From contig OZ231126.1 in assembly GCA_965153355.1 (NCBI GenBank), positions 25,668,001 through 25,732,000 of the forward strand: a stretch of 64,000 nucleotides of DNA, written 5' to 3'. This DNA is from Flaccisagitta enflata. Taxonomy: Eukaryota. The first letter of the stretch is position 1. Each line of letters opens with the position of its first letter. This document shows, piece by piece, positions 33,644 through 59,215 of the stretch. The notes under the pieces were generated by a model. The model saw nothing but the letters and a program-made list of their open reading frames with translations, ran no database searches and was not told the DNA's origin. A program made the translations under genes and the position numbers.

Positions 33644-34150
33644 ATGTCACCTGTGTTTAACGCGACTTGGGCCAATTTTGGTGCACCAAGTGGGATTGGA
33701 GGTGAAGTTGGGAATTTGACGGGAAGTGACGTCGATGATTTGGTGTGGAGTGGTGACGGAAGTTGGAACGTTACCCAAATGAACAGTAGTATCGGCGGTG
33801 ACATTGATTTGAGAGGCGGTGGAGACGGATATTGGTGGGAAGAGAAGGGAGAAGGCGACGACTTTCCTGTGGTGAAATTTGGACCGGATTTGACTTTTCT
33901 CGAACCGCTAGGAGTGTACATCAACTTGGCGTTGCTGGTTGTTGCGATTGTGCTGACGATTGGAGTTGTGTGTAGGTGTGTGGCGGGGAAGGTACGAGTC
34001 ACATTGGATAGGCGCCGTGGGGCGGAGATTGCGCTGCAGTTGGGATCGACGGGCGACGTAGTTGAACGCGTCGTGGTGACTGAAGCAGTTGGCCGACGGG
34101 AGAATGGCGTTGGAGACCGTCCAGGAAATCCACGTGGATTCGCGATCTAG
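33644..34150 (+). CDS. Single-pass membrane protein (~168 aa)
   Basis: Hydrophobic segment LGVYINLALLVVAIVLTIGVVC is followed by basic residues. Four N-x-S/T sequons precede it. Confidence 0.6.
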   Translation: MSPVFNATWANFGAPSGIGGEVGNLTGSDVDDLVWSGDGSWNVTQMNSSIGGDIDLRGGGDGYWWEEKGEGDDFPVVKFGPDLTFLEPLGVYINLALLVVAIVLTIGVVCRCVAGKVRVTLDRRRGAEIALQLGSTGDVVERVVVTEAVGRRENGVGDRPGNPRGFAI

Positions 34151-34961
34151 GGGATGTTATCAGAAACAGACAAGTAGTTTTCATATGAATTTACCTGGAA
34201 TAAACCTTCCCAAAGGTCGCGACCTTTTTGTGAATGTAAGTGATTTTACACTGCCCATTATTGAAAAGAATCTTTCATTTGTGATGTATTATGGTTTAGA
34301 CACTTTGAATATTGAAGAAGACGCTGTAAAGGAATATAATTTTGTATTTAGTAGCTTAAATCAATTTGCCACACAATTGCACTGTGCTGTTGTTAATGAT
34401 TTTATATATAAAAGCAAGTGTGTGGAAAAGGAGGGTGATTTAGTAGGTGGTGGGAGGAAAGATGATGTCGACAGCGTGTTTTATGTAAGATTTATGGATG
34501 GAATGTTCCAAATGCAGTTGGACGAAAATTGTGTGCTTTTTGCCTCGGATAATTTGTTTCAGTTTATGGCCTTTTATGATGAGGTTTATGATGCCAAGAA
34601 TGGGAGTAATAAGGAAAAAGTTTTGGCACCCGCTGGAAATACTGATTTCATGAAGGTATGTAAACGTTTAACATTTGGTGCACCAAAGAATTTTTTTAGT
34701 GATAGTGATAGGGTGTGCCATTTGGTAATTGACAACTGTTTGAGCCCCGTTGCATGTTTTGACGGTGGCAGATACAACGTGATATGTAGTTATGATTTGG
34801 AAAAGATGAAAATGGTATCGAATTATAGAAAATTTTTTTCTGATGGTTTAAGAAATATTAGTTTTTCTGTGTTGGATAATAATTTTAAGCCATTCGACTT
34901 TGGTTGTTGTTTGAAAAATCAATCGTTGCGTTTTGTATTAAATGTTGTTGCAAAAATTTAA
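34104..34961 (+). CDS. Minor capsid (penton) protein (285 aa)
   Basis: N-terminal IHVDS...QTSSFHMNLPGINL...VNVSDFTLP and C-terminal LRNISFSVLDNNFKPFDF match the Polinton single-jelly-roll penton pattern. Confidence 0.75.
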   Translation: MALETVQEIHVDSRSRGCYQKQTSSFHMNLPGINLPKGRDLFVNVSDFTLPIIEKNLSFVMYYGLDTLNIEEDAVKEYNFVFSSLNQFATQLHCAVVNDFIYKSKCVEKEGDLVGGGRKDDVDSVFYVRFMDGMFQMQLDENCVLFASDNLFQFMAFYDEVYDAKNGSNKEKVLAPAGNTDFMKVCKRLTFGAPKNFFSDSDRVCHLVIDNCLSPVACFDGGRYNVICSYDLEKMKMVSNYRKFFSDGLRNISFSVLDNNFKPFDFGCCLKNQSLRFVLNVVAKI

Positions 34962-37209: not shown

Positions 37210-37878
37210 ATGGAGAATACCAAAGTGATTACCCCGGTGAAATGTGACAATCCTGGATGCGCCTGCACGAATTGCAGATGTTGTGTTAGAAAGAAACTAG
37301 AATCGACGGAAATGGGGGCAACGAGTGACGGACTGAGTAGCTTAATGTGGAATGCGGATGGTAGGGAGATGGAGATTGAGGTGGTGGAGTGTGCTAAGGT
37401 GAGGTGTGATGAAGATGACGTGAACGGAGTTGCTTTGGGCATTGCGGATGAAGAAGCTGAGTTGGAGAGGTGGTTGGGGGAATTGATGCTCGACGACGCG
37501 GAAGACAAGGATGTTAACGGTGGGTTGTCATGCATTGAAATGGACTCGCGTGTGCGTGACAACTCCGCCGATCAAAACGGGTCAACGGATCGCGAATTTG
37601 TGGACGCATCGTTGTTTACGCCGCCGGCGATCGGCGTTGGATTGGTGGTCGACAAAGGCGTGGACGCGTCGATGTTTACGCCGCTCGTGATCGACATTGG
37701 GCCAACGGTTGGCGAAGATGTGGAGGCACCGATGTCTACGCCACCCGCAATCGACATCCAGAGGACCGCGTGGGTGGAATACTACTGTGGACCGGTTAAA
37801 CCCGTTCTGTTGGCGGATTTTGGAGTGGATTGGAAATCGGTTACCAAGGAAGAGGTGGTGGAGATTAGCCCACTATAA
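37210..37878 (+). CDS. Acidic hypothetical protein with N-terminal Cys cluster; last codons replaced by a transposon insertion
   Basis: Starts MENTK with CDNPGCACTNCRCC. The stop lies inside the TIR of the 37868-40680 insertion. Confidence 0.55.
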   Translation: MENTKVITPVKCDNPGCACTNCRCCVRKKLESTEMGATSDGLSSLMWNADGREMEIEVVECAKVRCDEDDVNGVALGIADEEAELERWLGELMLDDAEDKDVNGGLSCIEMDSRVRDNSADQNGSTDREFVDASLFTPPAIGVGLVVDKGVDASMFTPLVIDIGPTVGEDVEAPMSTPPAIDIQRTAWVEYYCGPVKPVLLADFGVDWKSVTKEEVVEISPL

Positions 37879-40680
37879 AAACACGCTTTTTCATGCTGAG
37901 GCTCTCTATCCAAGGAATCTGGCTCAAAATCATGTATATAGATAGTCCATCACAAAAATTTGACCTTGGGGCTTCTCTAAAGTGTGCCCGCCACACCCCT
38001 CCTAATGCATAAGTGGTGGTGTTGTTTTTTTTACATCATCACATATTACTCATCTTTGTAAACTTATATCTCCTAAACGAATAAATCTAGTGACCTCAAT
38101 TTGGGCTCATTTTAAAGAGCTTTACTGACTCTTTAAAATGAGCTCAAGTTGAGATCATCAGCTGTATTCATTTAGAAGCAGTTTTTTTTCAAAGTTGATG
38201 CCTTTTTGGAGAAAATATTGATTTTTGTGACAACTTTGCAAGCTTGTATCTCCCAAACGAATAAAGCTACTGACCTCAACTTAAGCTTTCATTACTTTTT
38301 AGTCGCGTGCTACGTGACTCTACACCCCACCATGTCAGTTGGTTGGTCCGTTGGTTGGTCGGTTGGTTGGTCGGTTCCCTTTTTTATTTTTTCGGCGTTT
38401 TGAGCTTTTTGAGCATACAGCTCCTGCCCAGATGCCCTAGTGACCTTCTCCAGCACTGCTCCAGCCCACCTGCACGCAACTAGGGTATCCGTGTATCCGG
38501 CCTTGTTAAAATGAGCCCAAGTTCAGGTCTGTAACTTCATTTGTTAAGAAGCAGTCGTCTTACAAAGCTGATGTCTTCATGAAGGAAAAAGTAATTTTGT
38601 CATTAAACTTAAATTTTATATTTTGTTTTATTTTACCCTATTACAGTCAGGTGATACACTGGCTCGTTGGTAACTGCCATTTACTGTGGGTTTGGGACCT
38701 GCAGAGGGCCCTTCAAAGAGCCCACATGGCCTCAATAATGGTAAAAATGACCCCAATACTGAAAAAAATGCTTTTTTTATGCCTTGGGGTATCCTAATGG
38801 TACACTGACTCATCGGTAATTTCCATCTAGTGTGGCAGGAGATGAACAGATGGTTAACAGAGGGTTAGTACCCTTGGGGGGCCTTTGAAAGGCCCTTTAG
38901 GGCTCAAAAATAGCCAAAATTGTTCCAAGATTGAAAAAATACTTACTTTTCTGCATTGAAGCACCCTAGAAGCAGTCATTCCTATCATGTGTAGTGGGAT
39001 ATGTACAGGTTTATTACAGAAAATCAAGACCCCTGGGGGTCTCCGTAAGGACCCCAAAGGGCCCTAAAATGGTGAAATATCATTTTATGTTCTTTTTTGT
39101 TTTCTGCTGCATTTTACCATGACGCTGCTTAGATAGCTAATTTGAGGCCTGAGAGGCCAGGTTTTAGCCCTGAGGATTTGAATTTGAGGCCTGGAAAGCC
39201 TAATTTGAGGTCTGAATGGCCAGGATTTGAGGCCTGATAGGCTGGGTTTGAGGCCTGAGAGGCTGGATTTGAGGCCAGATTTGAGGTCTAAGAGGCCAGA
39301 TATGAGGTCTCAAAGGCCAGATTTGAGGCATGAAGGGCCTGATAAGGAGGCTGGGAGGATGAATGGATGGTAGCATAAATAAACCAACGAACAGACAAAC
39401 AAAAGTGTTCTACAGGACTTTTTCCCCCTTGGCGCCGCTGCCCAAAAATTGAACGTTGCTCAATTTTTTAGTTTTTTTACCTTATTCTTTTGTCCTTGAG
39501 AGCTCTTAAGTGGCCTCTGGGGGACTCAAGCCTCCTTGACTCTTTACAAATCTCTTTCATGACTACATTGCAATGACTCACAAGGCAGTGTCACAATTGA
39601 GTGCAGCAGAATAGAAAAAAAAACATAAGATAATACTCTTCCAGAGCATTTTGGGCTTTTTTGGGTCACTCAGGGTCTTCAAGGGGGCCCCTAGGAATCC
39701 GAATCTTTGGTAATTCACATATTCATATCCCACCACGCTATACGGGAATTACTGATGAGTGGGACTACTTCTAGGAAAGCAGTATTTTTCAATCTTTAAG
39801 CCATTTTTGCCATTTTTGCTCTTCAAAGGGCCCCTAGGGGTCCAAACCCTCTATTATCCATCTGTACATCTCCTGCCACACTAGATGGAAATAACTAAGA
39901 AGTCAGTGTACCACTGGGATACCTCAAAGCAGAAAAAAGACAATTTTTTCAGTAATTGGGGGCATCTTTACCATTTTTGAGGCCATGTAGGCTCTTTAGG
40001 GGCCCTCTTTGGGTCTCAAACCCCCATTATCTATCTATTAATGTACCCTCACAGTAGATGGCAATTAACAATGAGCCAGTGCATCACCTGACTATAATGG
40101 GGTAGAAAAAAAGCCTAATTATAGAATTTTAGTTTAATGACAAGAACTACTATTTTCTTCATGAAGACATCAGCTTTGTTAGACAACTGCTTCTTACCAA
40201 AGAAAGTTGCAGACCTCAACTTGGGCTCATTTTAAAGAGTAAGTAAAGCTCTCCAAAATGAGCCTGAGTTGAGGTCAGTAGCTTTATTCATTTAGGAGAT
40301 AAAAGCTCGCAAAGCTGTAACAAAAATCAATATTTTCTCCAAAAAGACATCAACTTTGGGAGACAACTGCATTTAAACGAATAAAGCTAATGATCTCAAC
40401 TTTGGCTCATTTTAAAGAGTAAGTAAAGCTCTTTAAAATGAGCCCAAATTGAGGTCAGTAGCTTTATTCGTTAAGGAGATATAAGCTTACAAAGATGAGT
40501 AAAATATGACAATGTGAAAAAAACAACACCACCACTTGTGCATTAGGAGGGGTGTGGCGGGCACACTTTAGAGAAGCCCCAAGGTCAAATTTTTGTAATG
40601 GACTATCTATATACATGATTTTGAGCCAGATTCCTTGGATAGAGAGCCTCACCATGAAAAAACGTGTTTTTATAGTGGGC
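37868..40680. mobile_element. 2.8-kb non-autonomous foldback DNA transposon with long TIRs and a TA target duplication
   Basis: Junctions read TA|GCCCACTATAAAAACACG...CGTGTTTTTATAGTGGGC|TA. The arms stay inverted-homologous for roughly 1 kb. It carries nested family A (38297-38506) and family B (~39143-39447) elements. No transposase ORF. Confidence 0.9.
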
Positions 40681-40688
40681 TAGTGGAG

Positions 40689-42064: not shown

Positions 42065-44525
42065 ATGGAACTGTTGGTAGAGGGGTCAAAGTTGGATATT
42101 CCCCAATCAACGATAATCAGTCGCGTTCCTGAGACTTTAATAGGCGTGACTGGACAAGCGCGGTTAAATGTTACACCAAGCCAATCTGTGACTGACGCTA
42201 GTCGGTACAGCTTTCAAATACAGCCAAATGTGCCCATGGAACTATTCCCTCGAAACTCATTTTTGAGGTTGAAATACAGAGTGAAAAAGTCGAATGGGGA
42301 GAAGTTTAAAGATACGGACCAGGTATGTGGTATGGAGAGAGAGAGAGAGAGAGAGGAGGGAGAGACTGGGAGAATGAGAGATTGAGAAAGGCATAATGAA
42401 ATACAAGGGGGGGGGGAGAGAGACATATAGGACGATATAGAGAAAGTAGGGGGCGTGGATTAATTGGTTAATATTGTATTGATATAGGTGAGCTGTCAAC
42501 AGTTTCTTGGTGTAATGGTTTTCGAATCGGCTCGTTTGATAATTGGAGGACATGAATTTCTGAAAATATTCCCGACTTCAAATTACGTGCAGTTCCTTAG
42601 AATGATGCTTCTGTACGAAGAGAGTTACCGGGAGATTCACTTTTACTCGCTGGGTAAGTTAATGTGAAAGTTGATGAGTATAAAAGTTGATACAAATATG
42701 ATGATATGATAATGACTGATACTGCTACAATATTGCTATTTCAGGCTTCAGAGCAAATTTGCCGCCGTTTTCTGATGAAACTGATGTCCTTCTGGATGAG
42801 GTAGGTTAGGTTGTGTTTGCACTGTGTGGGTTTAGTTTTGAGTTTAATGTGTGTGTAGTAATAATTGTTTTTTTTTTGTCCCCTTTTTCAGCCCTGTTTC
42901 TGTAGATGTGGAAGATGCAACTGTCTCCAGTATAACAATCCATTGGCTGGTAATTGTACTGTTTAAATGTTGGTTGATTGCTGCTGTAACATTATTATTG
43001 GTTTATGGAAAAAAGTAGATTTTATTGTGGTAATTTGGCATGATTTTTTGTTTTGTAGGCAGCTCTGGATGCGGTGCTATGTCTGCTACTGAGATGGCCA
43101 AGGGCGAAGGGAATACTGAAAGAAGCGGAAAGGAAATATTGGCACTCATGGAAAGGTAAGGCGTGCTTTGTTGGATGATAGATTTTTTTGGTGGGGTGAG
43201 TGTGAGTTGAGAGATTAAGATGATAATGCGATGTTTTGTTTTGTTTTTTTTGTGACAGGAATAGGCGGTTTAATCCGGGTTTGTACCAAAGAGCGAGGAT
43301 GCTTCGGGCCTCTGTGGTTGGAGAGGAACCGATGGAAATGGCAATTCCATTGCATCTGTTGCATGAGTTTTGGTAATAATTGTGAAAGCAAAATAATTAT
43401 TGTGAATGAGAATGTATGGTTGGTTTATTTAATTATTGCTGTTGCCCACTCGCCTGCGATTAGGGCAGTGTTGTATCCGACTTTGTTAGTGTGATAATTT
43501 CTTTTTTTTTTCTTTTTTTTTTTTTATTCGACAGGGGTTTGGATTGCCTCTATCCTCAGAAAAAAATTGTGGAATTTGTCCTCAAACTTAACGACGTTTC
43601 CAAGGTTTTATTGAAAGATCCGAAGGACGAAAATGATTATGAAATAGAAATCCAATCCATCTGGTTAGATTTGAATTACGTGCATTTGGAGGTAAGTGCC
43701 TATAACTGCCTATATGAGTGCCTGTAATTGCCTATAACTGCCTATAAATGCGCACAAGTGCCTAAAAATATGCATAGATACATGTGTATGATTATGGTGA
43801 TTGAGATATAAATAATAATGCTAATGTGTTTTGATTTGTGAGAGGGGGGGGGTTAGAATTGTATGCCCGATGTTACAAAAATGTAATTATATGCAATTTA
43901 TATGTTTTAGGCTGGAATTCGCTCTCAATTTTACGACCTCATCAACAGCGAAGGATTGACAAGAATTTTAAATGTCCAAAGGGTACAGGAGTACAGTTTG
44001 GCCCAAGGGAATCGCATCTTTCATTTCCCAAATGCCTCTAGTTTTTCTCGCTGTCCCGAAGTCGTACTTCTTTGTTTTGTCAGCGACAAGAGGCATGAGG
44101 GAAACAACATAAATAGAATGATATTCCACTCGTTTGGGCTCGAGAGTTTGTCAGTTACTCGCAACGGATTGCCAAGCGTGCATAATGAGTTTACAAGGAA
44201 TATGGATTTGGGCAACATTGACAGCCCCCACATTGATTTTTTCTATCGGAGTTTAGTGGATTTTTTTCGACCCCATGCTGAGAAGAGTGTGTCGCGCGAA
44301 AGGTTTTTCTCAGAGATGTTTCTCATCTGTATTGAACCTGGGCCCATACCGAGAACGTTATTTCCAGAGGACCCAAGGGAAACTGTTAACTTGTCCTCCA
44401 CCCTCGTTCTTGATGTCGATTTGACGTTTAAAAAGAAGTTGAATGAGAATTTACAGATGTTTTTGATTTCATTCGACAAAGTTGTTACAAAAATTGGAGT
44501 TCAAGGAGATATTGTTGAAAGTTAA
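42065..44525 (+). CDS. Major capsid protein (double jelly-roll), 8 exons: 42065-42322, 42488-42653, 42745-42800, 42892-42949, 43059-43155, 43259-43372, 43535-43691, 43911-44525 (506 aa)
   Basis: All 7 introns are GT-AG and phase-compatible (0,1,0,1,2,2,0). The spliced protein tracks Polinton MCP motifs: FLRLKYRVKKSNG, NYVQFLRMMLLY, NPGLYQRA, CPEVVLLCFVSD...FHSFGLESLSVTRNG. Confidence 0.88.
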
Positions 44526-45348: not shown

Positions 45349-48300
45349 ATGACATTTACGGAAAGTGAAATAAACGCCATTGTGCGGGATGATCAGGACA
45401 TGGAAACTGTGCTTCCAAGGGATTACTCCCCAATAATCCACGACGCACTTCGCAATAATTACCATAATGCGCGGACTAGATTAATTATGGCTCCTGGTCG
45501 CTATTGCTCGGAGATACAAGTTAGACTGGCAAACATGCGGCCGGTCCAATATGACTCTTATCGCAACTATTGGCCATCATTACTCGGAGAGAATTTAAAC
45601 TTCGTGCAATTTGTGAAATCGGCGCTAATTACGCAATTTGCATCAAGACGGACTTGCGTTCGCGTGAATTTTAGCATATCGTTGCTAATTTTGGACCCCA
45701 ATGACACTAACTCACCGACTCATTTTTTGTGGTCATCTCGTGGAAACTTCGCATGTTTGGACGTCGCATTTTCTATACACAGTTGGTCGACTTTGAATGA
45801 GTTCATCGAAGACGTTGTGGCGCCATATTCCGTTGAAAACGCCTTAATGAGGAAGTTGGAAACGTTAGAGGAGCGTTATTCTGGTGAACTAATCCCAATT
45901 TCTGTGAACTTCTACATCACCCTCAATACTAACACTATATTCGGTGCCAGAAAAACATACAATCAACGATACCTAAGTGACAATGAGTGCGTCGATAAGG
46001 AAACGTGCAACAGAAACACGGATTGTGTGTGGAACGCCCTCTCGTCGATGGTGACCCTGGACAACGAGCGTCGGCCGATAGTGCGGCACTGTTTACGGAA
46101 AAGGGTGAATAAAAGAATAGCAAAGAGATTAAAGGTGCAATTTTTGAGATGGTATAGGACGACTAAGTTTAAAGGTGACTACTTCAGTGATCCAGTGACT
46201 GCTCATGGATTTGACGCATCTTTCTTCTCTATATTAGAGAAATTCCTAAAAATGGGAATTGTGCTTGTTGACAATACTCAAATAACAAAGAAAAAGGTTG
46301 GATTTTTTGGACTTGTGAACACTAACTCTAAGATGAGATGCTTGAAGGTAAAATTCGCATCGAAAGAGAGACGGGCAGAAACTATATACCTCTCTACGGA
46401 TGGACGGAATCATATACAGTGCATCACTAATTTGCCTATGTTTGCCCATAAATTCACATGTAAGGGCTGCGCAAAGTCGTACCGTTATGCCTGTGAGTTA
46501 AAGCGACACAATTGTAAACAGGCAAAGTTTGGAGGTAGCACACAGCAAAAGTGGATTTACTCCCTACACAAAAGCATTGAAAAAACTTTGAGTGTGGAAA
46601 ATAGACTAAAGAGTGACGCAAAATACATGCATGTTCTTATAAATGAAACGGGTGTTGATGGTGGCATCAGTGTGAAGATGCATTTTCATTTATTTGGATC
46701 GGACATTTTAACCAAGGCTGTAGTGACTCCTGATTTACAGTGTGCCACGCAGATAATAGTGAAATATTGCACCAGAGCTGCATTGATTGTACTCAGTGAG
46801 AGAATGGCAAAGAACTTTAGTCTACTAAAAACAGTTGAGAATGAGTGTAACGGCATTACGATTAAAAGTGACCCCATACAGGTGGAAAACCTGTTGAGGG
46901 TGAAACAAGGACTAGTTGAGTTTTTGTCGTCATTCGCATGTTACATACAAACAGGACATGGTGACAGCTTGACGTCAAATGTTGTTATGCATACACTTGT
47001 TTCTACATTGAGCGATGACAACGATTGCAATAATTTTGCCATTCGATTTGCAAGAAATATGCTACAAGGTGTGTACATAAAGGGTAATCCAGTGAGATAT
47101 TTGAATTTGGGTGAATTTGCACCCAACTACATGGGATTAGAAGCGTGTGACAGTCATGTGATTGATTGGTCTTTAGTAATTGCGAAATTTGAGGAATACT
47201 TTGGACTGAACATCACCGGATTAAGTCCGGGGCAAATCGGCCATCAGCTTTTAGCAAACAATTTAACATGTACCGAAAAAAAAATGTTCATGACATCAAC
47301 TGTCGCATTTCAAGAGCGTACATTCCACGAAAATGTGAGATATGGACTCCTTTCATTCCAAGAAAGTGGCATCGTGTCGCAGAATGCTTCTTTCAAATCG
47401 GTGATATCAAGTGACTACAGTAAATTCTACTTTAGCATTCTAACTAGCCCTAACCCAGATGATTTTAAATGGCTCACTGTTGGCTTACCAATTAGATATG
47501 AAGAGCAGAAAAGAGATGGAGTGTTCGTGGCAGAAAGGACGCGACGTAGGAAGACAATGGCCAATCTTTTTTTGCGGCTGGTAGAGGAAATGTTTGACAC
47601 GACGGTTGTTTCACTTATTAACAGCAGAGAGATGAAATTTGACTCAAAACCAGTGGATGGTTACTTTCAGTTAAATGGTGAAACGTGGGTGACTGAGTAC
47701 TGTGGATGTGGCTACCACGGTGTAGGTGAGAGTAGCTGTGACGACGATGAGGCGGTTAAAACACACAATGGAGTTTGTCATTTGCCAAAGAGTTTCATTA
47801 GGACAAACTACCCCGGACACAGTGAATCGTGTGACGTTTGCAAGGCCGATGAATGTAGTGATAGTTACAATTTTGCGAAGCCATCTCTTTGGCATTTACG
47901 AGATGGAGAAGATCTCAATTCTATGCATTTTTTCCGCAAGGGGTGCTCATACCGTGATCTGTTTGAACAAACTAAAGAAAAGAACAACAGTATAAAAAAT
48001 TGTGGATTTAAACTATTAGTAGTCTATGAATGTACTATACTAAAGTACTGGAATTGCACCGTTGGTGATTTTTTTGCACAGTGGCAGTTACCAGTAAAGG
48101 GTACACACAAGAGTGAAGTATTGGGGAAAATGATGGGGCAGATATGCAATACTGCGTTCCCTCTTTCCAGATACCCATACCTAACTGAAAGCAGAATAGT
48201 GGAATCGATTAAAACAAGAATGTTAAATGGGTTTGTGACAATTACGTGCAATTTGGGCCCAAAGAGTGCTCAGGTTTTAGGGGCAATTAAACCCTTTTTT

Positions 48301-49275
48301 TTACGAGACAAACAGGGGAATCCTGTTCAGAGTTTTGAAATTGAAAAGAGGACCGTTTCAACCTGCTTACTCCATGAATTGCTTACAAACCCTTCATTTG
48401 TGGATTTTACTGTTATAAAAATACATGAAGCATTCGAGTTTACTGTCCCACGGACAAACCCATTTGAGAAATTGCGAAGTCCTGTCAAAATTGCATTGAG
48501 CAATGAGGGAAGTTGCACATTCACAAAACTAGTTAAGGCCACAATAAACCGCGCAGTTGGAAGTCTTAATTACAATTGTACTAAACGCGTGAAAAGTATT
48601 TTGATTAAAGAGGATGACATAGCACATTTGAATTCCCAAAACTCAAATTTGTCCCACTGCACACGCGTAACTGCGGACAAGGTGTTGATGCATCTAAAGA
48701 ATAGACGTGCTGTTAGCAACAGTTCCCACTTGCATTTGGGTATCTTAGCAACTGGAGTATCGGCTATGCTGCGTTATCTATGTGGGATGAAACAATTTCT
48801 GACTGGCGCTGTTTTTCAACGATGCAACACTGATGGGGTGGTAGTAAAATTTGAGACAGAACATTTTCACGAGTCTCTGACAGTTTACAGTGATTTGTCG
48901 CTTGTATTTGATGCGTTTTTACCAAGAGATAATTTGAGCACGGAGATGCTAAACGGTTATATTACATGGAAAAAAACCTATTTTAAACATTTGGGATTTT
49001 GCCCTAATCACGAGAAAGTGTACATGGATTTTCTACTTAAAAATGATACATGTTTTAATCCAATGGAATGCTGTAGAAAATTTGTTAACAACGATACTAG
49101 ATTTTGTATGATTGTAGAGTTTACTGGCAACATGGCTCTTTTTAAGTCGGTAAATGCGTTAATTATTGTGAACACGTACAATTTAAAAAAATATGCAAAG
49201 GGCGTTGCGTATCAATCATTTGACTGTGTTAATCTTGCTGGCAAGAGTTGTGATGAGTTGAAATTAATGCTGTAG
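45349..49275 (+). CDS. Protein-primed family B DNA polymerase (pPolB) with Vsr-like nuclease insert, divergent (1308 aa)
   Basis: N-terminal NTDCVWNAL and HIQCITN...CKGC...KRHNC Zn region. Motif A SSDYSKFY (47413). Vsr-like VDGY...EYCGCGYHG...VVYEC. Motif B KATINRAVG (48535). Motif C CNTDG (48832). Confidence 0.85.
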   Translation: MTFTESEINAIVRDDQDMETVLPRDYSPIIHDALRNNYHNARTRLIMAPGRYCSEIQVRLANMRPVQYDSYRNYWPSLLGENLNFVQFVKSALITQFASRRTCVRVNFSISLLILDPNDTNSPTHFLWSSRGNFACLDVAFSIHSWSTLNEFIEDVVAPYSVENALMRKLETLEERYSGELIPISVNFYITLNTNTIFGARKTYNQRYLSDNECVDKETCNRNTDCVWNALSSMVTLDNERRPIVRHCLRKRVNKRIAKRLKVQFLRWYRTTKFKGDYFSDPVTAHGFDASFFSILEKFLKMGIVLVDNTQITKKKVGFFGLVNTNSKMRCLKVKFASKERRAETIYLSTDGRNHIQCITNLPMFAHKFTCKGCAKSYRYACELKRHNCKQAKFGGSTQQKWIYSLHKSIEKTLSVENRLKSDAKYMHVLINETGVDGGISVKMHFHLFGSDILTKAVVTPDLQCATQIIVKYCTRAALIVLSERMAKNFSLLKTVENECNGITIKSDPIQVENLLRVKQGLVEFLSSFACYIQTGHGDSLTSNVVMHTLVSTLSDDNDCNNFAIRFARNMLQGVYIKGNPVRYLNLGEFAPNYMGLEACDSHVIDWSLVIAKFEEYFGLNITGLSPGQIGHQLLANNLTCTEKKMFMTSTVAFQERTFHENVRYGLLSFQESGIVSQNASFKSVISSDYSKFYFSILTSPNPDDFKWLTVGLPIRYEEQKRDGVFVAERTRRRKTMANLFLRLVEEMFDTTVVSLINSREMKFDSKPVDGYFQLNGETWVTEYCGCGYHGVGESSCDDDEAVKTHNGVCHLPKSFIRTNYPGHSESCDVCKADECSDSYNFAKPSLWHLRDGEDLNSMHFFRKGCSYRDLFEQTKEKNNSIKNCGFKLLVVYECTILKYWNCTVGDFFAQWQLPVKGTHKSEVLGKMMGQICNTAFPLSRYPYLTESRIVESIKTRMLNGFVTITCNLGPKSAQVLGAIKPFFLRDKQGNPVQSFEIEKRTVSTCLLHELLTNPSFVDFTVIKIHEAFEFTVPRTNPFEKLRSPVKIALSNEGSCTFTKLVKATINRAVGSLNYNCTKRVKSILIKEDDIAHLNSQNSNLSHCTRVTADKVLMHLKNRRAVSNSSHLHLGILATGVSAMLRYLCGMKQFLTGAVFQRCNTDGVVVKFETEHFHESLTVYSDLSLVFDAFLPRDNLSTEMLNGYITWKKTYFKHLGFCPNHEKVYMDFLLKNDTCFNPMECCRKFVNNDTRFCMIVEFTGNMALFKSVNALIIVNTYNLKKYAKGVAYQSFDCVNLAGKSCDELKLML

Positions 49276-49773: not shown

Positions 49774-50445
49774 TTAGTCGGATGATGGGTTTTCAGGAGA
49801 GGGTGTGTGGAACTGCCCCCTCCCCCTTTTGGGTCCGGCATTTTCCTTCGACGCGTCTGGAGCCTTTCGTTTTTTCCCTTTCGCGGCATCGGCCTTCACG
49901 CATGCGTTGACCCGCATGGTTCGGAAGAACCTAGGCAGCACAGGTTGGATTGAACCAACTTCGGGAAGATCGGGGAATACGTTGAACGATTTGAAAATTG
50001 AGATCCTGTGAGAGAAGCAGTAATGAAAAAAATAAATATAGTAATTCTGTTGATATGGGTTTGTATGTTTGTAATCACGTGGAAAATGTTAGTTGTAAAT
50101 GATTGTTGTGCATAAGGGAAAAATGGAGGACAGGGGGGGGGGAGTGAGGGGGAGAGAGAGAAATGGGGTGAGATGGAAAGGGAGAGGGAGGGGATGGGGG
50201 GAGGGGATGGGGGGGGGGGGTGAGAGAGGAGGGGGGAGGATGAAATGAGGGGGAGAGAATGGAAGAGATGGGGAGAGGAGAGGGAGAGAGGGAGAGAGAG
50301 AGGGATAGAGAGGAAAGAGATAGAGAGGAGGGGAGAGAGGTAAAGGGGGGGGGAAGAGGAGGGTAAGAAGGGGAGGGGGAGATAGAGAGGGTTGGGGGAG
50401 AGGATAAGAGGGTTGGGAGGGAAGAGGGTTGGAGTGAGGTGGGTA

Positions 50446-50498
<53 letters not shown>

Positions 50499-51112
50499 AT
50501 TTGGCAAGGTGCCCCATCGACTACGATTTGCGAAGGACGTTCCGGTCGGACACCATCCACCTCCTCTCTCCACCATTCGTCTTCTTCGCAAAGGCCGTAT
50601 TCCTCGCGGATATCGGCCTTTCTTTCATCGGAGAGGTCAACCCACTTTTCTCCCGGCGACAAAATGGGACATTGCAGCCTGGAACGATGGAGAAATGTGT
50701 GTTATTACTGTTGTGTGTGTAATGTGAATAAAATTGGCAACGGAATGATTTTTGTATAGTTTTAACAATTACATTTAATTAACTAATGTACAATGATGGT
50801 ATTTATTTATATACTAACTTGAGTAACCACAATCGATTTAGAAGGCAGGAAAGTTCTCCAGGATTCTCTGCAAACTCTTTGATGTCAAAGTTTGAAGAGC
50901 ATAGAATTGGGACATCGTGGGCGATGCTGCGGCCAGCGCCATGTTTGACGTTAATATCGCCACTGACGCCTTCAAACATAAGTTTGAGGTCGGACGGCTT
51001 GAGTTGCTTTGGTTCCATTTCGTCGCAGTGCGCAACATCTACGATGGGGTGGAGAGGGGCAGAAAGAAAGAAACAAGGTAGATAGAAGTAGTTAGAAAGA
51101 AGGTAACAATAA

Positions 51113-51162
<50 letters not shown>

Positions 51163-52005
51163 GCAACAACAAGCACAACAGTTAGTTCCAAATCTACGCT
51201 AACAACAGAGTTCAGTTTGTAAGTTCAGAGTTTCGCGACTCGCATTTCATCGGTTTATCTGTCAACAACAACAACTATCATGAACAGTAACAATAACAGT
51301 TACAAATAGGGACTCACCAGTCGTGAAATACACGTTTTGTAGGTAGAAATTTCTCGACGATAAAGACACGAGGGCTTTCTGTATCGCCGGTGTGAGGATG
51401 GATAGTAGAAGAGACTTTCCGTATTGCTTGGCCCGCTCACGAAGAATCTTTGAAAGACAGAGAAAAAGACAGAAAGGATAGAAAAAAGGATAGAAAAAAA
51501 ATTAACTAAAACATTTAAGGAGGAGAAATATGGGTTAAAACGTGGAAAATAGAGGCAAATTGAATAACCAATAGATAATAAATGGGAAATTGTATGAGTA
51601 AAAGGAGAATATACATACCCACATCTCTTGGTGTGACTGTCAAGTTGCTGCATCTTTGCCTTGGCCTGTTTGGCGGGATCTTTGCGGTCTTTGATGCGCT
51701 GCTTGGCCAATTCAATCGCGGCGCGGAGACGAGCTGCCTTTTCTGCGGGTGTTTCCGATCGAACGTCATCGGCGCCAATGGCGCCATTAGAACCTACAGA
51801 TGGCGCTGCATGTGGGGTGCGGTCGCCGCGAACAACGCCCGCGTGTCCGGCGTTTGCAGATTCATGGTTGTTTTCGATGTCATCTTCGTCGGAATCCTCG
51901 CTTGCGTCAGTATCGCCACCTTCGACGTCATCATTGGCGGCATTGGGTGCCTCTTTGTGTTGGTCGACGTCAGACCCATCGGATGCGTCGTCGTCGTCGT
52001 CGTCG

Positions 52006-52043
<38 letters not shown>

Positions 52044-55000
52044 TGGTTCGGGTTCCGGCTCCGGCATGGATTCTTCCATGATGATTTTTCGTTTGATACT
52101 GAAGGTCAGGATGTAGTTTAGGACGGCGAGGATCGCCCTTGGATCTCCACCATTAGTCGACAATAAATGCGCCAGCTGCAAAAAAAAAAGGTGATTGTAA
52201 ATGTAATTGTGGTCAGCGGTACCCGTCACCCATTTATAAATTTTCCGAATGAATACAAACAAACACCATCGTTCAACATTACATGCACACATTTTACCCA
52301 TTGGGCCATGTCGTCGTAGACGTTATTTTCTCTCTCGTATGACCCCAGCTCCTTGATCATTTCGTCGGTCGCTCCTTCGTCTTTAGCCGCTTGGATGATG
52401 GCATCCCAATCTGCCTTATCTTCCTGGATCATCCGCTTGTATTCTTCAATTTGCGGTTTGTAACTGAAAAAAAGAGAATGTTAGTAAACAAAACATTAAT
52501 AATATTAACCAAATGGATTGAAAGAAATCTACGTTAAAACTATGACTAATAAAAATAATTGAACCATGTTAATTTAAATGACCATCTTACTTACTATTCA
52601 ACCATGCGAATTATAAAGGATTTTTCTCTGGCCTCCTTTTGCTTTTGCTCCATGTAAATGTCGAAAATTTCTCGTTGAACCGATTCACTGCAACCCTTTA
52701 AGTAGACCGACAAGCCAAGTCGCAATTCCATGTCCATGCTTTGTCTAAGAAAATGGAAGTAACATTTGAATTACAACTAAGTGAGGGGGGGGGGTGTGAG
52801 TGAAGCCCCACACGTTCCACTTAAATTTATCACCTCCAAGATTAATGCCTGTTGTAAAACTAACCTGAACTCCTCGAATGACTGTGGATTTGATCTCTGC
52901 GGATTTGATCTCTTCATGAGTTGGATGAGCACTTGTCGCTGGTCCCAATCGTTTTGCATTGATTCCGAGCATTCGCATTCCCCAATGTCTAAGTGAGCGA
53001 AAAAAAATGTATGGGGTTGAGGGTACACAGAAATTGTACACATATAGAATTTTTAATCGCGTGTACGCGACCATCGCGTGTACGCGACCATAAGTCATTT
53101 TTAGGTATAATGAACCATTTTAGGCGATTCTAAGTAATTCTAAGTCATTCTAAGCAATTTTAAGTAATTCTAAATCATTTTAAGTCATTCTAAGTTATTC
53201 TAAATCATTCTAATTATTTTAAATCATTCCAAGTAATTGTAAGTTATTCTAAGTCATTCTAGGTCATTCTAAGTTGTTCTAAGTAATCCTAAATTATTTT
53301 AAATTATTCTAAGTTGCTTTAAATCTTCCTATGTTATTCTATTCATTCTTACATACACAACCAACCTAGGAATTTTAGACGATCAGGGGCTTTCAACGAT
53401 GGGTCAAGAAATTCCATTGATGGGCGTCCCTTTTTGCCCTCTCCCTTTGATGGCATGGGATTTGCATCTACCATGGATTGGCGTTTCGTCTCATCGTCCA
53501 AAAACACGTCGAAGCAGCTCACAGCTGGCTTATTTTCGTCCGGCATCTGATGAAACTGAGAGGCGAAGAGCAGTAATTATGTATTAAAGTTGCACATGTT
53601 AGTGAATGCATGCATATAGAATGACAATGAAGCTGCATAGTATATAAATACCAACCTGTAGCAAATATTCAAGTAGGGGTGGTGCCACTCTTCCCTTAGC
53701 CTCTTTATCGTTGCCGCGCTTGTTGTTGATGTCGATGCAATAATCAATCCTCTTTTGTTGCACATGTTCTTCGGTGGGACAGCATATTGACTGTGTGAAT
53801 AATTTTGTAAAATGCTATCACAAAGTATTTATAACATTGGAGTATTCGATACTGTGGCATCACCATAGCATCACAATAGCATCACACTGGCATCACATTG
53901 GCATTGCAGTAACAACATAGTAGCAGCGCAGTGGCAACGCAATAGCATCACAATAGCATCACAGTGACATTATAATAGCATCACATTAACATCACATTAG
54001 CACCACAGTAGCAACACAGTAGTAGTATTGCAGTGGCATCACAGTAGCATTACATTAGCACCGCCGTAGCATTAACTCACCTCGTAGTCACATGGTTTTG
54101 ACAGTGCAGCTGCAATTTTCGCGTAACCCCACTTGTTTGCCAGTGAGGTAAGAGCACCACTCCTCCTCAACACCTCGTCAAAAACCCTTTCGTGTGCTGT
54201 GTTTGACCAACCTTTGGGTTTTTTGTCTCCCGCGATTTTCTGTGTATTTGAGAGGAAATGATTAAATCGGGAATGGGTATGTATAAAAAGGCCATAGAAA
54301 TCCCAATATCTCTTAAAATCATTTAAATTGAAAAACTCTCTCCTCTAACCTTCAAAAACAGCTCGATGTCTGATCGCCATCTGTGTCCGTAGGAACTGAG
54401 AGAAAAAAATAGTTGAAAATGTAAGATGGTTAATGTTACCCATGGCATGTGGATAAAGACAAGGTTGAGAGTGGGGTAGCGACCCCAACACAAATAGAAA
54501 TGTGGAAAGAGTGAGAGAGAGAGGAGAGGGGGGAAAGGAGTGAGGGAAGGAAAGAGGGGAGAGGGATAGAAGGGGGGGGAGAGAGAAAGAGGCAAAGGGA
54601 CAAAGAGACAAAGAGACAGAGAGAGAGGCAGAGAGATAGAGAGAGAGAGAGAGGGAGAGAGAGAGAGATACAGTGCGTGAAATGTTCCATATCCTCGTCA
54701 TTCATCCCGGCTTCGTCTCCGTCCTCCCTGAGAGAAATAGTAAATGCGCAATGTAAACGAGTAAAAATGGATGGCCGCGTATACCATTAACAGCAGTTAT
54801 ACAGAAAGTATATACTTACTTGAACCTGTAGTGGTGACTGTACCAAGCATCACACTTCTTATCTCTAGCGTCCAGGTACTTCATCTTGAACTCGATACTG
54901 GTAAGACCGCTGTTCAAGCGCTTGATGTCTCTGGAAGTGAAAGAGGATGTAGATTTGATAACGGATAAATCTAAAGTAATTATCAACTGTAGTAGTTGAA

Positions 55001-55678
55001 ATCGAATTCTACACACATACATATTCATAGTTACCTAATAAACAAGAGGATGTGTAGCCAAGTGGGTTGATTAACCCCCATCTTCTTTTGGGATTCCCGC
55101 AGTTCGGCAATTTCCTCCGCTTTATCTTCCATGCCCTTTATTAACGGAATTCCGTCTATGACCGCGACGGTAGACATGTTGGGGGCGGTTACGACCACGC
55201 CCTCCATGTTGCTTTCTTTGGAGGCGGCCTCGAAGTCGGCGGACAAATTGCGTCGCGGATGTGGGATTTCGGTAGATACCTCGTCTTTATTTGTTGGCAC
55301 CATCGATTCATTTGGTATTGGCGACGCACGTGGAGAACGCGGTGATGGTGGCGTCGCCGCGCCACCCGGTGTTAACAGCCCACTTTGCTCGTCTGGTGTT
55401 GGCGATCTCCTCGAGTCATCGGATGCGCACGGGGATGCAGGCGACGAAGGACGAGGAGGAGGCGTTGGCGGAGGAGGAAGTGGTGCCGGGGGAGGAGGAA
55501 GAGGTTCACGATTGGCCTCATCGTCGGAGGAGTCCGACGGAACAAATTCCTTCGATTTATACTGTTCTTCCTTTTTGTCTTTTTTCTTGTGACGTTTGTC
55601 TTTATTTTCTTTTTTTTTACTCTTCTTTTTTTCACCCTCACTTGATTTGGATTTATGTTTTTTCTTTTCTTCAGCCAT
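49774..55678 (-). CDS. NS1/E1-like Rep: SF3 helicase with candidate N-terminal HUH domain; 15 exons (55678-55035, 54930-54820, 54727-54440, 54395-54350, 54239-54081, 53790-53656, 53546-53366, 52988-52865, 52744-52595, 52463-52298, 52175-51619, 51447-51318, 51038-50819, 50678-50079, 50005-49774); 1-nt frameshift in Walker A; ~1247 aa if repaired
   Basis: All junctions are GT-AG and phase-consistent. Motifs: KRCGFFVSGPSNT/GKS (A), SSRNFYLQN, VAHCDE (B), LKLMFEG..INVKHG (B'), ILCSSN (C), LLNRL (Arg finger). Confidence 0.8.
53115..53340. repeat. 10-bp (taagtcattc)n array inside a Rep intron
   Basis: Visible directly in the sequence. Confidence 0.85.
53855..54070. repeat. 11-bp (agcatcacagt)n array inside a Rep intron
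   Basis: Visible directly in the sequence. Confidence 0.8.
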
Positions 55679-56231: not shown

Positions 56232-59215
56232 TTAAATTTCATCGTAGTGTGTGAGCAGCAATGAGACGAGTAATGTGTTGTAGTTGGGGTGTGAGTCATA
56301 CAAATGGCGATTGAAAACAGAGACATTCAACTCCTTGGCAGAATGATATACTTTAATGTGCTGGTAAAACTCTAGGGCGCTTCTTTGGACAATATTACAT
56401 TTCTTACATTGAATGCCATTTTCAAAAGATTTCTTAACTTCAACTGCCATGTGGGTAAAAATATCTAAAAATTTCAATTTTATACCACACAGGTAACACA
56501 CTACATCGTGGTTTTCTTCCCTGAAATGGGATATAATGTCCTCATACATGCCCTTGCCATATACAAAACGTGTGTCACACTGTGAACATTGCTTATCCAC
56601 TCCAATAGAGACAACGTTCTGCCTGACAAAGTCACAACTTCCGGTGAGAATATGGTCTCTTGGAGTGAGCGATTTAGATTTTCCTGGGAATGGTGTGAAA
56701 CAATAACAGCAAATTTTCTTACTCAATCTACTTGGCAGTCCGTGCACTGTATCCTTACTTTTCTTGATGGAAGTGGGCGCCTTTTTGACGATGGGCAGGT
56801 CATTGGATTTGAGCCCTATGTCCAAATTTGGCATTTTTGGCGACTTGTACTCGAATTCACCGTTGGATTTCCGCTTTGATGGTGATTTTCCCGCCCCACT
56901 TTTCTGCGTCATCGACGATGTGGATTGAGGCGCAGATTTTTGGGCGACTGTCGCGATTTTGTCGCCCACACTCACACTTGATGAAAAGGGACGCGTTGTG
57001 GTATTCGATGACGGCTTTTGTGGCGCAGATTGGCGGGATGATGATGCAGATTTGCCGTTAATCTTCCCGGTCAATGATGGTTGGGCATTTTCCTTTCCAT
57101 TTGATGACTGATTAGAGGATTTACTTGGAGAAGATGCATTTGGGTCCATAAGTGGCGCCGCTTTATTTGTTTCCTTGCCAAGCACTTTGCCATATTTATC
57201 AGTCAATAGCACCTGCTTTTTGGCGTTGGGATCGGGAATTAGTGGATCCTTGGGAGTGAAAACCGATTTATTCGCGGGATTTCCGGCTTGACTGCGTTTC
57301 AAATCGCTCATTCTCACGCCATTTTTGGGTCCCAGGCGCAACGCAGGGGCGCCATTTCTCGATAAATTGACGTCACCTTCATCCGCGAAGGCTTTGGAAT
57401 ACAGAGATTTAGTAGGAGAAAATGCGTCTTCATTTGATGCGGAATCAACTGGCGCCTCATCCGGTTTCATCATATCTTGCAAGACAGCTGCGGCTTCGTT
57501 ACCTTCTTTAATCCAACCTGCTTCATTTGCCACCTTCCCTTTTTCATTATGCGCCCCTTCCTCTTCATCATCACTCTCTCCCCCGCCTCCAGCCTCCTCC
57601 TTGTCATCTTCCTCCTCCCTATCCTCCTCCTTGTCATCGTCCTCCTCTCCAGCCTCCCCCTTGTCATCGCCCTCCTCCCCATCCTCCTCCTTGTCATCGT
57701 CCTCCTCCCCAGCCTCCCCCTTGTCACCGTCCTCGTCCCTATCCTCCTCCTTGTCATCGTCCTCTTCCCCATCCTCACCCTTCCCTTTATTTTCATCGCC
57801 ATTCCCTTCCTCATCCTCACTCTCTCTCTCTACATCTCCATTTTCGTCATTAACACCTTCCATTTCGTCTGCCACGTCATTATTCCCCGTTTTACTCGCT
57901 GCGTCATCATGTACTTCGTCTCTCTCGGCGCCATTCGTATCGTCGCTTTCCTTGCGATTTATCAAGTCCATTAAGGCATTCTCAGATAGTTGACTTCCGC
58001 CACTCTCTTCAGTCGACGATTGATTTTTTGGTTTGGCCGCTTGTTTTTCGCATGTGGGCTTCTTATGCTTTTGGGTCATGTCAGAGATGGCATCCTCCGG
58101 TATCTCCTCCTCATCATCGCTGAAGGGGTCGGTAATTAATCCATCATCGGCATCATCATCAGCAGGAAACACTGCACGGTCAAACGGCGCCCCTTCATGC
58201 GACGCAGATGCCATTGGGAAGGCGACTCGCTTACTCGTTGACTTTTGCAATCCCACTTTCTTCGTACAATCAATTACCACTCCACCACTTTGCGACAATG
58301 AGTTGGAGATGTTATCGGTGCATTCAACCGTGACCATAGTCGGAGATGATGTTTTTTCCTCGACGGTGGCGTTGGTGGCGTCCACATTGGCGTCGACATT
58401 GACGTCATCGTCGACGTCGTCACGCCTTTCCTCTCTGTCGCTCAAGTTTGCATTGTCCATGTTAGGGGATCCACTAGTGTTTTCGACGACGGCATCAGCT
58501 TTATTGGGCGACTTGGGATTGTCCACAACATTGGTGGATGCGTTAATTGCGCCATCTGCATCACTAGAGACCAATGCGTTGTCGAAGGCAGCGCCGACGG
58601 TGGCGTAGGATTTGACGGCTTCACCGGGAGTAGGTTTGTTGAAGGGTAAGTAGCGGTCGACAAGGGCTTCCAACTTCGGGATGTCGCATTCCTTAAGACT
58701 TCCTTCAACATCTTCGACATCCTTTTCCTCTCGACGGGCCGCTTCTTCCGCCTCCAAAGCGCGGATTTTTTCTTCTAATCCGTCGAACATTTTTTCGTCG
58801 ATTTTTCGAACCGATTGTGGAATACTCGGCTCTTCATCATCGCAGTTGGGATCGAGGAGCGCAGATATAATTTTGGTTATCTCTGTTGCCATTTTACGCA
58901 TATTGTTTTCGTTGAGTTCAGCCTTTCCTTGGTCGATGTCGTACATCAACTTCGCCTCCTTTATTAGAAAAAAAAAAGGACAATAATACATGAACCCTGA
59001 GATGGCGACAAATTTCATTGGTATATACTATGCCACACCATAGCAAATAAACAACCCCAACTTACCCGGCACGCCTGGCTAAATGACAGCCCCTCCGATT
59101 TTGCCGTGAGAATCAACTTTTCCATCATATTCTTGTAAGGCGCCCTCAACGATTCCCTTTTTTCTCCCTGGGCAACCTGAATTGCGCGCCACTCCTTTTG
59201 CTTGCTAACACACAT
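56232..59215 (-). CDS. Large acidic/disordered protein with C-terminal C2H2-type zinc fingers; exons 59215-59066 and 58958-56232 (5' end uncertain)
   Basis: Phase-0 intron CGG|gtaagt...taaag|GAG. Fingers: CCYC...H...C, CSQC...HFREENH, CYLC...H, CKKC...HIKVYH. Confidence 0.75.

What the first reader, a model, noticed from the sequence alone, without database searches (positions are those of the whole stretch)
45349..49275. Intact but catalytically atypical pPolB with a Vsr-like nuclease insert
Seen: a 1308-codon open frame. Motif A is DYSKFY (canonical DxxSLYP), motif B is KATINRAVG (KxxxNSxYG) and motif C is NTDG (DTDS). I could not recognise the Exo I/II acidic motifs. The two main catalytic Asp residues appear retained. 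A VDGY...EYCGCGYHG...YEC block follows motif A, as in known Vsr-containing pPolBs. Inference: a proofreading-deficient or repurposed polymerase. Together with the NS1-like Rep, this hints at replication that is not standard protein priming.
Basis: partly seen in the sequence, partly recalled or inferred. Interest (0 to 1): 0.7.

Follow-up and report, generated by a model that had tools for sequence, protein, structure and literature searches.

The report
Proofreading-less Polinton polymerase paired with helicase
This is the DNA-copying enzyme of a very divergent family of virus-like transposons in an animal genome; it seems to have lost its proofreading site but kept its copying and protein-priming parts, and within this genome it sits next to a helicase gene, a trade-off so far described mainly in viruses of single-celled hosts.

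Summary
The ORF and motifs are real. The 1308-aa protein is the pPolB of an intron-bearing Polinton (left end 28271; complete sister copies ~34.7 kb, 266-bp TIRs, 5-bp TSDs). It folds like phi29 polymerase (Z 12.4, 458 residues) with a Vsr-like insert (Z 7.2).

The odd motifs are family traits, not decay. Across 41 relatives at 20-74% identity, D689, K1063, N1067, G1071, N1160 and D1162 are invariant, and dN/dS among recent copies is 0.11-0.29. So the polymerase is very probably active.

The exonuclease fold is kept, but the Exo I positions are acidic in only 2 of 29 rows each, so proofreading is very probably lost.

A spliced SF3 helicase gene, with no HUH motif seen, faces the pPolB at 25 of 33 listed loci. 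This repeats, apparently independently, the exonuclease-loss/helicase-gain pattern of mavirus. No activity was assayed, and linkage is shown in one genome only. New variant; interest 0.6.

The parts
28271..28536 (.). Left terminal inverted repeat of the Polinton (266 bp, begins AGTAGT)
   Evidence: Left boundary shared with two sisters; matches the right ends of sisters at 97%
29900..30936 (+). Packaging ATPase (A32/FtsK-like), Walker A split by an intron
   Evidence: Sequence; weak phmmer match to the ATPase of a canonical Polinton in the same genome, E 0.053
32363..33535 (+). Retroviral-type (rve) integrase
   Evidence: Pfam rve E 6.9e-5, below the curated cut-off; also in the 32% subfamily
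34104..34961 (+). Putative minor capsid protein
   Evidence: Position and recalled resemblance; conserved in the 32% subfamily; no Pfam hit
37866..40682 (.). Secondary non-autonomous hAT-like insertion private to this copy (422-bp TIRs, 8-bp target duplication)
   Evidence: absent from three sisters
42065..44525 (+). Putative major capsid protein gene, multi-exon
   Evidence: Last exon 35% identical across subfamilies; identity as MCP is recalled, profile test not significant
45349..49275 (+). pPolB, 1308 aa, intronless: TP - vOTU - C2H2 - inactive Exo - palm with Vsr insert - TPR1/fingers/TPR2 - palm with Cys/His insert - short thumb
45349..45948 (+). Predicted terminal-protein (D1) domain, aa 1-200, candidate linking Tyr177 (45877-45879) followed by a conserved Gly
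   Evidence: Y177 27/27; position fits the description in PMC11161782; fold not confirmed
45961..46515 (+). Predicted vOTU protease (C226, H355) and C2H2 finger
   Evidence: C226 30/30, H355 32/32; zf-C2H2 hits
46606..47268 (+). Exonuclease-fold domain lacking conserved catalytic carboxylates (phi29 D12/E14 register to L430/N432)
   Evidence: RNase H-like fold matches; register from range starts; column counts
47413..47430 (+). Motif A: D689 (metal ligand) and Y694 (steric gate)
   Evidence: D 37/37, Y 35/37
47536..48093 (+). Vsr-like nuclease insert with invariant D770, H790 and Cys/His ligands
   Evidence: Z 7.2 to 1cw0; D770 41/41, H790 41/41
48535..48561 (+). Motif B, K1063-x3-N1067-x3-G1071
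   Evidence: Each 40/40
48826..48837 (+). Motif C, N-T-D-G with catalytic D1162
   Evidence: N1160 40/40, D1162 40/40
48886..49098 (+). Family-specific ~60-aa palm insertion with C1218, H1221, C1241, C1242 (possible Zn site)
   Evidence: 38-39 of 39 rows each; D1162-to-E1257 spacing 89-98 aa versus 28 in phi29
49774..55678 (-). Multi-exon gene region ending in an SF3 helicase (Walker A exon ~51317-51451, frameshifted in this copy; Walker B/B'/C exon 50821-51045)
   Evidence: whether all exons form one gene is not shown
56232..59018 (-). Large acidic protein with C-terminal Cys/His fingers; part of the element
   Evidence: Conserved in the 61% subfamily
59204..59204 (.). Point where this copy stops matching its sisters; ~6 kb of right arm and the right TIR are missing here

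Best explanation
This is the working replicase of a deep-branching lineage of animal Polintons. Inferred mechanism: the N-terminal terminal-protein domain is deoxynucleotidylated on Tyr177 at the AGTAGT ends; the vOTU cuts the primer domain free; the palm (D689, D1162, Y694, K1063, N1067) extends DNA without 3'-5' proofreading, the exonuclease fold staying as a scaffold; and a separately encoded, spliced SF3 helicase unwinds ahead of the polymerase, as proposed for mavirus. The rve integrase inserts copies with 5-bp duplications. Shown: residue conservation, fold, selection, element anatomy, and gene linkage in one genome. Inferred: all enzymatic activities, the priming residue, and the helicase-polymerase coupling.
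For: Fold: phi29 pPolB best match, Z 12.4; viral-library hits led by pPolBs. Catalytic residues invariant over 37-40 rows at ~20-74% identity. dN/dS 0.11-0.29 in six pairs of near-identical copies and 0.09 between two subfamilies; 24 of 33 listed loci have full-length open frames. Exo region: only 1 column >=90% conserved in 255 aa, Exo I positions acidic in 2/29 each, no Exo III Tyr/Asp pair, lowest median identity (18% against 25-31%). Y177 27/27, C226 30/30, H355 32/32. TIRs end AGTAGT/ACTACT with 5-bp TSDs in 6 of 6 complete copies checked. SF3 exon hits lie 1-2.7 kb downstream, tail-to-tail, at 25 of 33 loci. SF3 motifs were read directly in the one copy examined of the 7-locus subfamily the queries missed. 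4 of 4 checked 'orphan' helicase hits (of 18) have this pPolB beside them. Two canonical Polintons in the same genome have no helicase hit; one clearly keeps its Exo motifs. Precedent: exonuclease loss goes with helicase gain in mavirus and PLVs (PMC11161782); the first motif-C Asp is dispensable (PMC5695915, PMC7544198).
Against: No activity data. Several primer-binding motifs are also altered: KxY becomes S-x-N-(R/K), YxGG becomes (R/K)(Y/F)G, the motif B Tyr becomes Ile/Val, and the thumb is ~20 aa shorter than in phi29; processivity could be poor. D539 may be a surviving Exo II Asp (15/31). The Exo register rests on range starts and motif spacing, not a residue-level superposition. TP and vOTU folds were not confirmed: the only model was single-sequence, pLDDT 36. 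Helicase linkage is shown in one genome only; no genomic context was obtained for the distant relatives. One open copy (L010) has Asn at the motif A Asp. The canonical-element control is n=2 and an intron-split helicase could escape it.
Confidence: 0.7

Rival explanations
1. The polymerase only primes or initiates (or scaffolds), and a host polymerase does bulk synthesis behind the SF3 helicase, as in parvo-, papilloma- and polyomaviruses.
For: Loss of Exo, altered KxY/YxGG/Tx2G-AR motifs and a short thumb; an NS1-like SF3 helicase is tightly linked. Genes carry spliceosomal introns, implying nuclear transcription.
Against: The full nucleotide-insertion site and a TPR2-length insert are kept; mavirus and pPolB-S1H palms are predicted active (PMC11161782).
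Confidence: 0.14
2. Primer handling has changed as in piPolB (primer-independent start or lagging-strand priming with the helicase), alongside or instead of protein priming.
For: piPolB also lacks the first motif-C Asp (TTDG) and the KxY motif (PMC5695915 passages); this family has NTDG and no KxY.
Against: The TP-like domain is the best-conserved region (median 31%); Y177 and the vOTU pair are invariant; piPolB keeps proofreading and has a KH-x8-KTRG motif not seen here.
Confidence: 0.08
3. Rolling-hairpin or rolling-circle replication started by an NS1-type nickase, the pPolB being secondary.
For: The helicase has NS1-like spacing (KRN/KPN before Walker A in two subfamilies); an active-looking Vsr nuclease could in principle nick.
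Against: No H-hydrophobic-H motif in 15 predicted exon frames; no Rep Pfam hit in 12 exon pieces (short pieces, weak test); the ends are plain TIRs with TSDs; bidnaviruses are a precedent for pPolB plus S3H without nickase (PMC4061559).
Confidence: 0.05
4. Proofreading survives through a non-canonical set of acids or is replaced by the Vsr insert acting on mismatches.
For: D423 (20/29), D539 (15/31) and E/D544 (18/32) are partly conserved; Vsr D770/H790 are invariant.
Against: None of these acids is invariant; D423 lies before strand 1; Vsr inserts also occur in pPolBs reported to have intact Exo motifs (PMC10748475).
Confidence: 0.08

Closest known systems
Animal Polintons/Mavericks (Polintoviricetes), incl. 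Vsr-bearing pPolB2 of marine nematodes and molluscs (Jeong 2023, PMC10748475)
   Same: TIRs, TSD, rve integrase, packaging ATPase, putative capsids, TP-vOTU-Exo-Pol layout, Vsr insert; Atlas nearest named clusters are eukaryotic PF03175 pPolBs at 0.92.
   Different: Exo carboxylates lost (that paper reports Exo and Pol motifs conserved in its ~22,000 pPolBs); NTDG, no KxY; Cys/His palm insert; short thumb; SF3 helicase; many introns; ~35 kb; no maturation protease detected; missed by the genome-wide PF03175 search.
Mavirus-like virophages and pMVRE group 1 (PMC11161782, PMC13215967)
   Same: pPolB with TP and active vOTU but no proofreading, plus a stand-alone SF3 helicase and rve integrase.
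   Different: Mavirus deleted most of the Exo domain; here the whole fold (~220 aa) is kept but inactivated. This element has Vsr and introns and sits in an animal-type genome. Independent origin is inferred from domain content, not from a joint tree.
Bidnaviridae (PMC4061559)
   Same: pPolB plus stand-alone NS1-like S3H lacking the HUH domain; bidna-like pPolBs lead the viral fold search.
   Different: Bidnaviruses are ssDNA, non-integrating, with inactivated vOTU and a parvovirus capsid; this is an integrating TIR element with an intact vOTU pair.
piPolB of pipolins (PMC5695915)
   Same: First motif-C Asp replaced (TTDG versus NTDG), KxY replaced; shown active.
   Different: piPolB proofreads, has no TP/vOTU, and primes de novo.
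phi29 DNA polymerase
   Same: Best structural match over Exo, TPR1, fingers, TPR2 and palm (Z 12.4).
   Different: 11% identity; Exo site absent; two large inserts; thumb 24 aa after the last Lys versus 46.

Membership tests
Protein-primed family B polymerase | pPolB fold with TPR1/TPR2 | tested here: met
   Z 12.4 to phi29 over 458 residues, next family 8.4; TPR2-length region aligns with a canonical Polinton pPolB, E 0.002
Protein-primed family B polymerase | Metal-ligand Asp in motifs A and C, Lys/Asn/Gly in B, steric-gate Tyr | tested here: met
   37/37, 40/40, 40/40, 40/40, 40/40, 35/37
Protein-primed family B polymerase | Canonical YxDTDS, KxY and YxGG motifs | tested here: not met
   N1160 40/40; S-x-N-(R/K); (R/K)(Y/F)G
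Protein-primed family B polymerase | Exo I/II/III carboxylates | tested here: not met
   Exo I acidic 2/29 and 2/29; Exo II candidate 15/31; no conserved Exo III Tyr/Asp
Protein-primed family B polymerase | TP domain with linking Ser/Tyr and vOTU Cys/His | tested here: inconclusive
   Y177, C226, H355 invariant and placed as described in PMC11161782; fold unconfirmed
Protein-primed family B polymerase | Polymerase and priming activity | not testable with these tools
   Needs biochemistry
Polinton/Maverick | TIRs starting AG, short TSD | tested here: met
   6 of 6 complete copies, 5-bp TSD; the window copy lacks its right TIR
Polinton/Maverick | pPolB plus rve integrase | tested here: met
   (rve below Pfam cut-off)
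Polinton/Maverick | Packaging ATPase and double-jelly-roll capsid | tested here: inconclusive
   ATPase weak match E 0.05; MCP profile comparison not significant
Polinton/Maverick | Ulp1/adenain maturation protease | tested here: inconclusive
   No match in the atypical elements while a canonical element was found at E 1e-3; introns and divergence could hide it
Vsr-like nuclease insert | Vsr fold with catalytic Asp/His and Zn ligands | tested here: met
   Z 7.2 to 1cw0; hhalign E 3e-4 on the C-terminal motif; D770, H790, C895 41/41; equivalence to Vsr D51/H69 is recalled
SF3 helicase | Walker A, B, B', C motifs in compact order | tested here: met
   Motifs read in five subfamilies; Pfam RNA_helicase E 0.003, PPV_E1_C E 0.08, both below cut-off
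Parvovirus NS1 / HUH Rep | N-terminal HUH endonuclease | tested here: inconclusive
   No motif or Pfam hit in predicted exons; spliced product not available

The most novel reading that the evidence does not exclude
A previously unrecognised, deeply diverged class of intron-bearing animal Polintons has rebuilt its replisome. A proofreading-dead pPolB with piPolB-like active-site changes and a new Zn-binding palm insert works obligately with an NS1-derived SF3 helicase, possibly with altered priming or with the Vsr insert doing mismatch surveillance. It would be a caught-in-the-act intermediate between canonical Polintons and helicase-dependent preplasmiviricots.
Probability: 0.2. Interest if true: 0.85.

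Novelty: new variant of a known kind. Interest (0 to 1): 0.6.

Why it matters
Krupovic et al. 2024 proposed that preplasmiviricot polymerases trade the exonuclease for a helicase, from mavirus and PLVs where the domain is deleted. This lineage looks like an independent animal case in which the domain is still whole but catalytically erased, with the helicase beside it. That makes the trade-off directly testable in vitro. It is also an exception to a survey statement that Polinton pPolBs keep their Exo motifs. It shows that an abundant, recently active Polinton class (at least 33 loci here, 76 protein clusters in public metagenomes) escapes the standard pPolB profile search.

Tried and rejected
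Sequence searches of PDB with the protein or profile found only C2H2 fingers. hhalign to phi29 was not significant. PF03175 hit 0 of 41 members, but a canonical pPolB from the same genome also gave no hmmscan hit, so that test does not discriminate; the genome-wide PF03175 search (4 matches of 15 scored, none at atypical loci) is the better control. The PIN_TASOR hit (E 1e-4, 2 of 41) is taken as chance. PF01057 Parvo_NS1 found nothing significant in the genome. No related loci in viral contigs or JGI metagenomes. The search for a spliced helicase protein gave one 165-aa fragment. The N-terminal fold was run without an alignment and is unusable. RNA: no RNA holder listed; laying two runs gave no joints and no informative coverage; not evidence either way. 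No earlier scan notes. 'Decayed pseudogene' is rejected by family-wide conservation and dN/dS. No tree with canonical pPolBs was built because they do not align; the family-only FastTree (45 rows) shows long branches only. Eight literature searches found no description of this lineage. Figures, supplements and Repbase were not seen; the Oct 2026 preprint marks pPolB elements with stand-alone SF3 helicases in a figure I could not view.
Full report
OBSERVATION. Sequence methods barely recognise it: no PDB hit, no pPolB Pfam hit. An alignment-based AF2 model of residues 385-1308 is confident (pLDDT 91, pTM 0.89). Its best structural match is phi29 polymerase (Z 12.4, rmsd 4.0, 458 aligned; other B-family enzymes 8.4 or less). 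Sub-regions match RNase H-like folds (model 37-240) and E. coli Vsr (protein 730-915; Z 7.2, rmsd 3.5, 120 aligned). The Atlas places it nearest an unnamed cluster (0.93) and eukaryotic PF03175 pPolB clusters (0.92).

THE ELEMENT. The gene lies in a Polinton whose left end is 28271. Upstream are an intron-split ATPase, an rve integrase (E 6.9e-5, below cut-off) and putative minor and major capsid genes; their identity as capsids is recalled, and a profile test was not significant. The genome search gave 36 matches (36 of 200 candidates scored), which collapse to 33 loci in subfamilies at 96-100, 61, ~51, 32 and 31% identity; 24 of the 33 have full-length open frames. Two complete sisters measure 34.7 and 34.8 kb with 266-bp TIRs. 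All 6 complete copies checked, from three subfamilies, begin AGTAGT, end ACTACT and have 5-bp target duplications (one needed a 1-nt boundary shift). The window copy is damaged: it stops matching its sisters at 59204 with no resumption in the next ~35 kb, carries a private hAT-like insert (37866-40682), and has a frameshift in the helicase Walker A exon, which may be a mutation or an assembly error.

ARE THE ODD MOTIFS DECAY? No. A full-library search found 76 clusters at E<=0.001; the 10 clusters looked up are unnamed ENA/Logan assemblies. In an alignment of 41 long members (20-74% identity to the query), counting non-gap rows: D689 37/37, Y694 35/37, K1063 40/40, N1067 40/40, G1071 40/40, N1160 40/40, D1162 40/40. 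By spacing from phi29 DVNSLY, D689 is the motif A metal ligand and Y694 the steric gate; D1162 is the second Asp of motif C. piPolB carries TTDG and is an efficient polymerase, and its authors conclude that only the second carboxylate is needed (PMC5695915, passages; also PMC7544198, passages). dN/dS is 0.11-0.29 in six pairs of near-identical genomic copies and 0.09 between two subfamilies. Against this reading: KxY, YxGG and the motif B Tyr are altered, the thumb is about 20 aa shorter than in phi29, a ~60-aa Cys/His insert sits in the palm, and 1 of 11 open copies has Asn at position 689.

PROOFREADING. The structural ranges start with a constant offset (model 37/39/40 to phi29 3/5/6), putting phi29 D12 and E14 on L430 and N432 in strand 1 if there is no gap. 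After dropping four close rows (37 left), those columns are acidic in 2 of 29 each. A candidate Exo II Asp (D539) is acidic in 15 of 31. No Exo III Tyr/Asp pair is conserved. Only 1 of 255 columns is >=90% conserved, against 5 of 95 in palm A and 15 of 170 in Vsr. Median identity is 18% against 25-31% elsewhere, yet dN between close subfamilies is like other domains, so the fold is kept as a scaffold. A canonical Polinton in the same genome keeps recognisable Exo motifs. Jeong et al. report Exo and Pol motifs conserved in their 20,702 pPolB1 and 1,331 pPolB2 homologs, and describe the Vsr insert in marine nematode and mollusc pPolB2 (PMC10748475, passages; supplements not read). So Vsr is not new, but the dead Exo is an exception.

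PRIMING. Krupovic et al. describe a TP domain whose linking Ser/Tyr lies in a loop near Gly/Pro before the last strand, followed by a vOTU with catalytic Cys and His (PMC11161782, section 4 part 1, section 8 and passages). Here Y177 (27/27, Gly two residues on in 20), C226 (30/30) and H355 (32/32) fit that layout, and residues 1-200 are the best-conserved region. With AGTAGT ends this argues for ordinary protein priming. The fold of this part was not confirmed.

THE HELICASE. Downstream, tail-to-tail, is a many-exon region whose exons are conserved between subfamilies. It has Walker A GxSNxGKS, an acidic Walker B, LKxxxEG/NxK and xTSN motifs in five subfamilies; Pfam hits to SF3 families are weak. 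Two exon queries gave hits 1-2.7 kb from the pPolB at 25 of 33 loci. Seven of the eight misses are one subfamily, whose one inspected copy has the motifs; the eighth was not checked. Eighteen hits had no listed pPolB; the 4 checked all had this pPolB alongside. Two canonical elements gave no helicase hit. No HUH motif appeared in 15 exon frames and no Rep family in 12 exon pieces; this test is weak without a transcript. Bidnaviruses also pair pPolB with a nickase-less NS1-like S3H (PMC4061559, passages).

MECHANISM AND NOVELTY. Most likely (0.7): TP-primed, vOTU-processed synthesis by an active but non-proofreading polymerase assisted by the SF3 helicase. This matches the stated rule that exonuclease loss goes with helicase gain in mavirus and PLVs (PMC13215967, passages). 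The differences are that the Exo fold is intact though inactivated, the Vsr insert is kept, the genes have introns, and no maturation protease was detected. Stand-alone SF3 genes beside pPolB and replicase swaps are known in the wider group (10.64898/2026.10.13.758929 and 10.64898/2026.06.19.733378, passages; figures and supplements not seen). PMC8502044 and PMC11296320 (passages) added no closer match. Eight searches found no account of this lineage, but Repbase and subscription journals are not covered. Verdict: a new variant of a known kind, with real value as an independent, testable case of the exonuclease-helicase trade-off. Limits: no biochemistry, helicase linkage in one genome, and no joint phylogeny.

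Noticed in passing
window 37866-40682: Non-autonomous hAT-like element (422-bp TIRs starting TAG, 8-bp target duplication, nested inner inverted repeats) splitting a Polinton ORF (37210-41018); absent from three sister copies.
   Followed up: partly
window 29900-30936, 42065-44525, 49774-55678: ATPase, putative major capsid and helicase genes carry many GT-AG introns, often with microsatellites; intron positions differ between subfamilies (e.g. in the Walker B/C exon), while pPolB and integrase are intronless.
   Followed up: partly
complete copies L022-L042, L052-L056, L034-L050: No Ulp1/adenain maturation protease detected in these elements, whereas canonical Polintons in the same genome have one.
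   Followed up: partly
window 44573-45200: Short Arg/Lys-rich ORF between capsid and pPolB genes, also in the 32% subfamily; resembles basic core proteins of adeno-like viruses (recalled).
   Followed up: no
window 51640-52080 (minus): A ~140-aa acidic stretch lies between the helicase's helical bundle and Walker A in two subfamilies but not in the 32% or 31% subfamilies.
   Followed up: no
window 59205-59846: Imperfect ~640-bp palindromic repeat exactly where the Polinton copy breaks off; similar repeat units flank the left end at ~26900-28250.
   Followed up: no
L075-L077 (G000:C1:86.91-86.93 Mb) and L079-L081: Canonical Polintons (155-bp TIR, ~20 kb in one case) coexist in this genome; their pPolB frames contain stops.
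   Followed up: partly
G000:C4:58.74 and 58.80 Mb; C8:21.12 Mb; C2:98.65-98.67 Mb: Pairs of nearby copies, two of them in inverted orientation, suggest local reinsertion or duplication.
   Followed up: no
window 33644-34150; L025:8200-8673; L055:6688-7362: Small predicted membrane proteins with a single hydrophobic segment recur in these elements.
   Followed up: no
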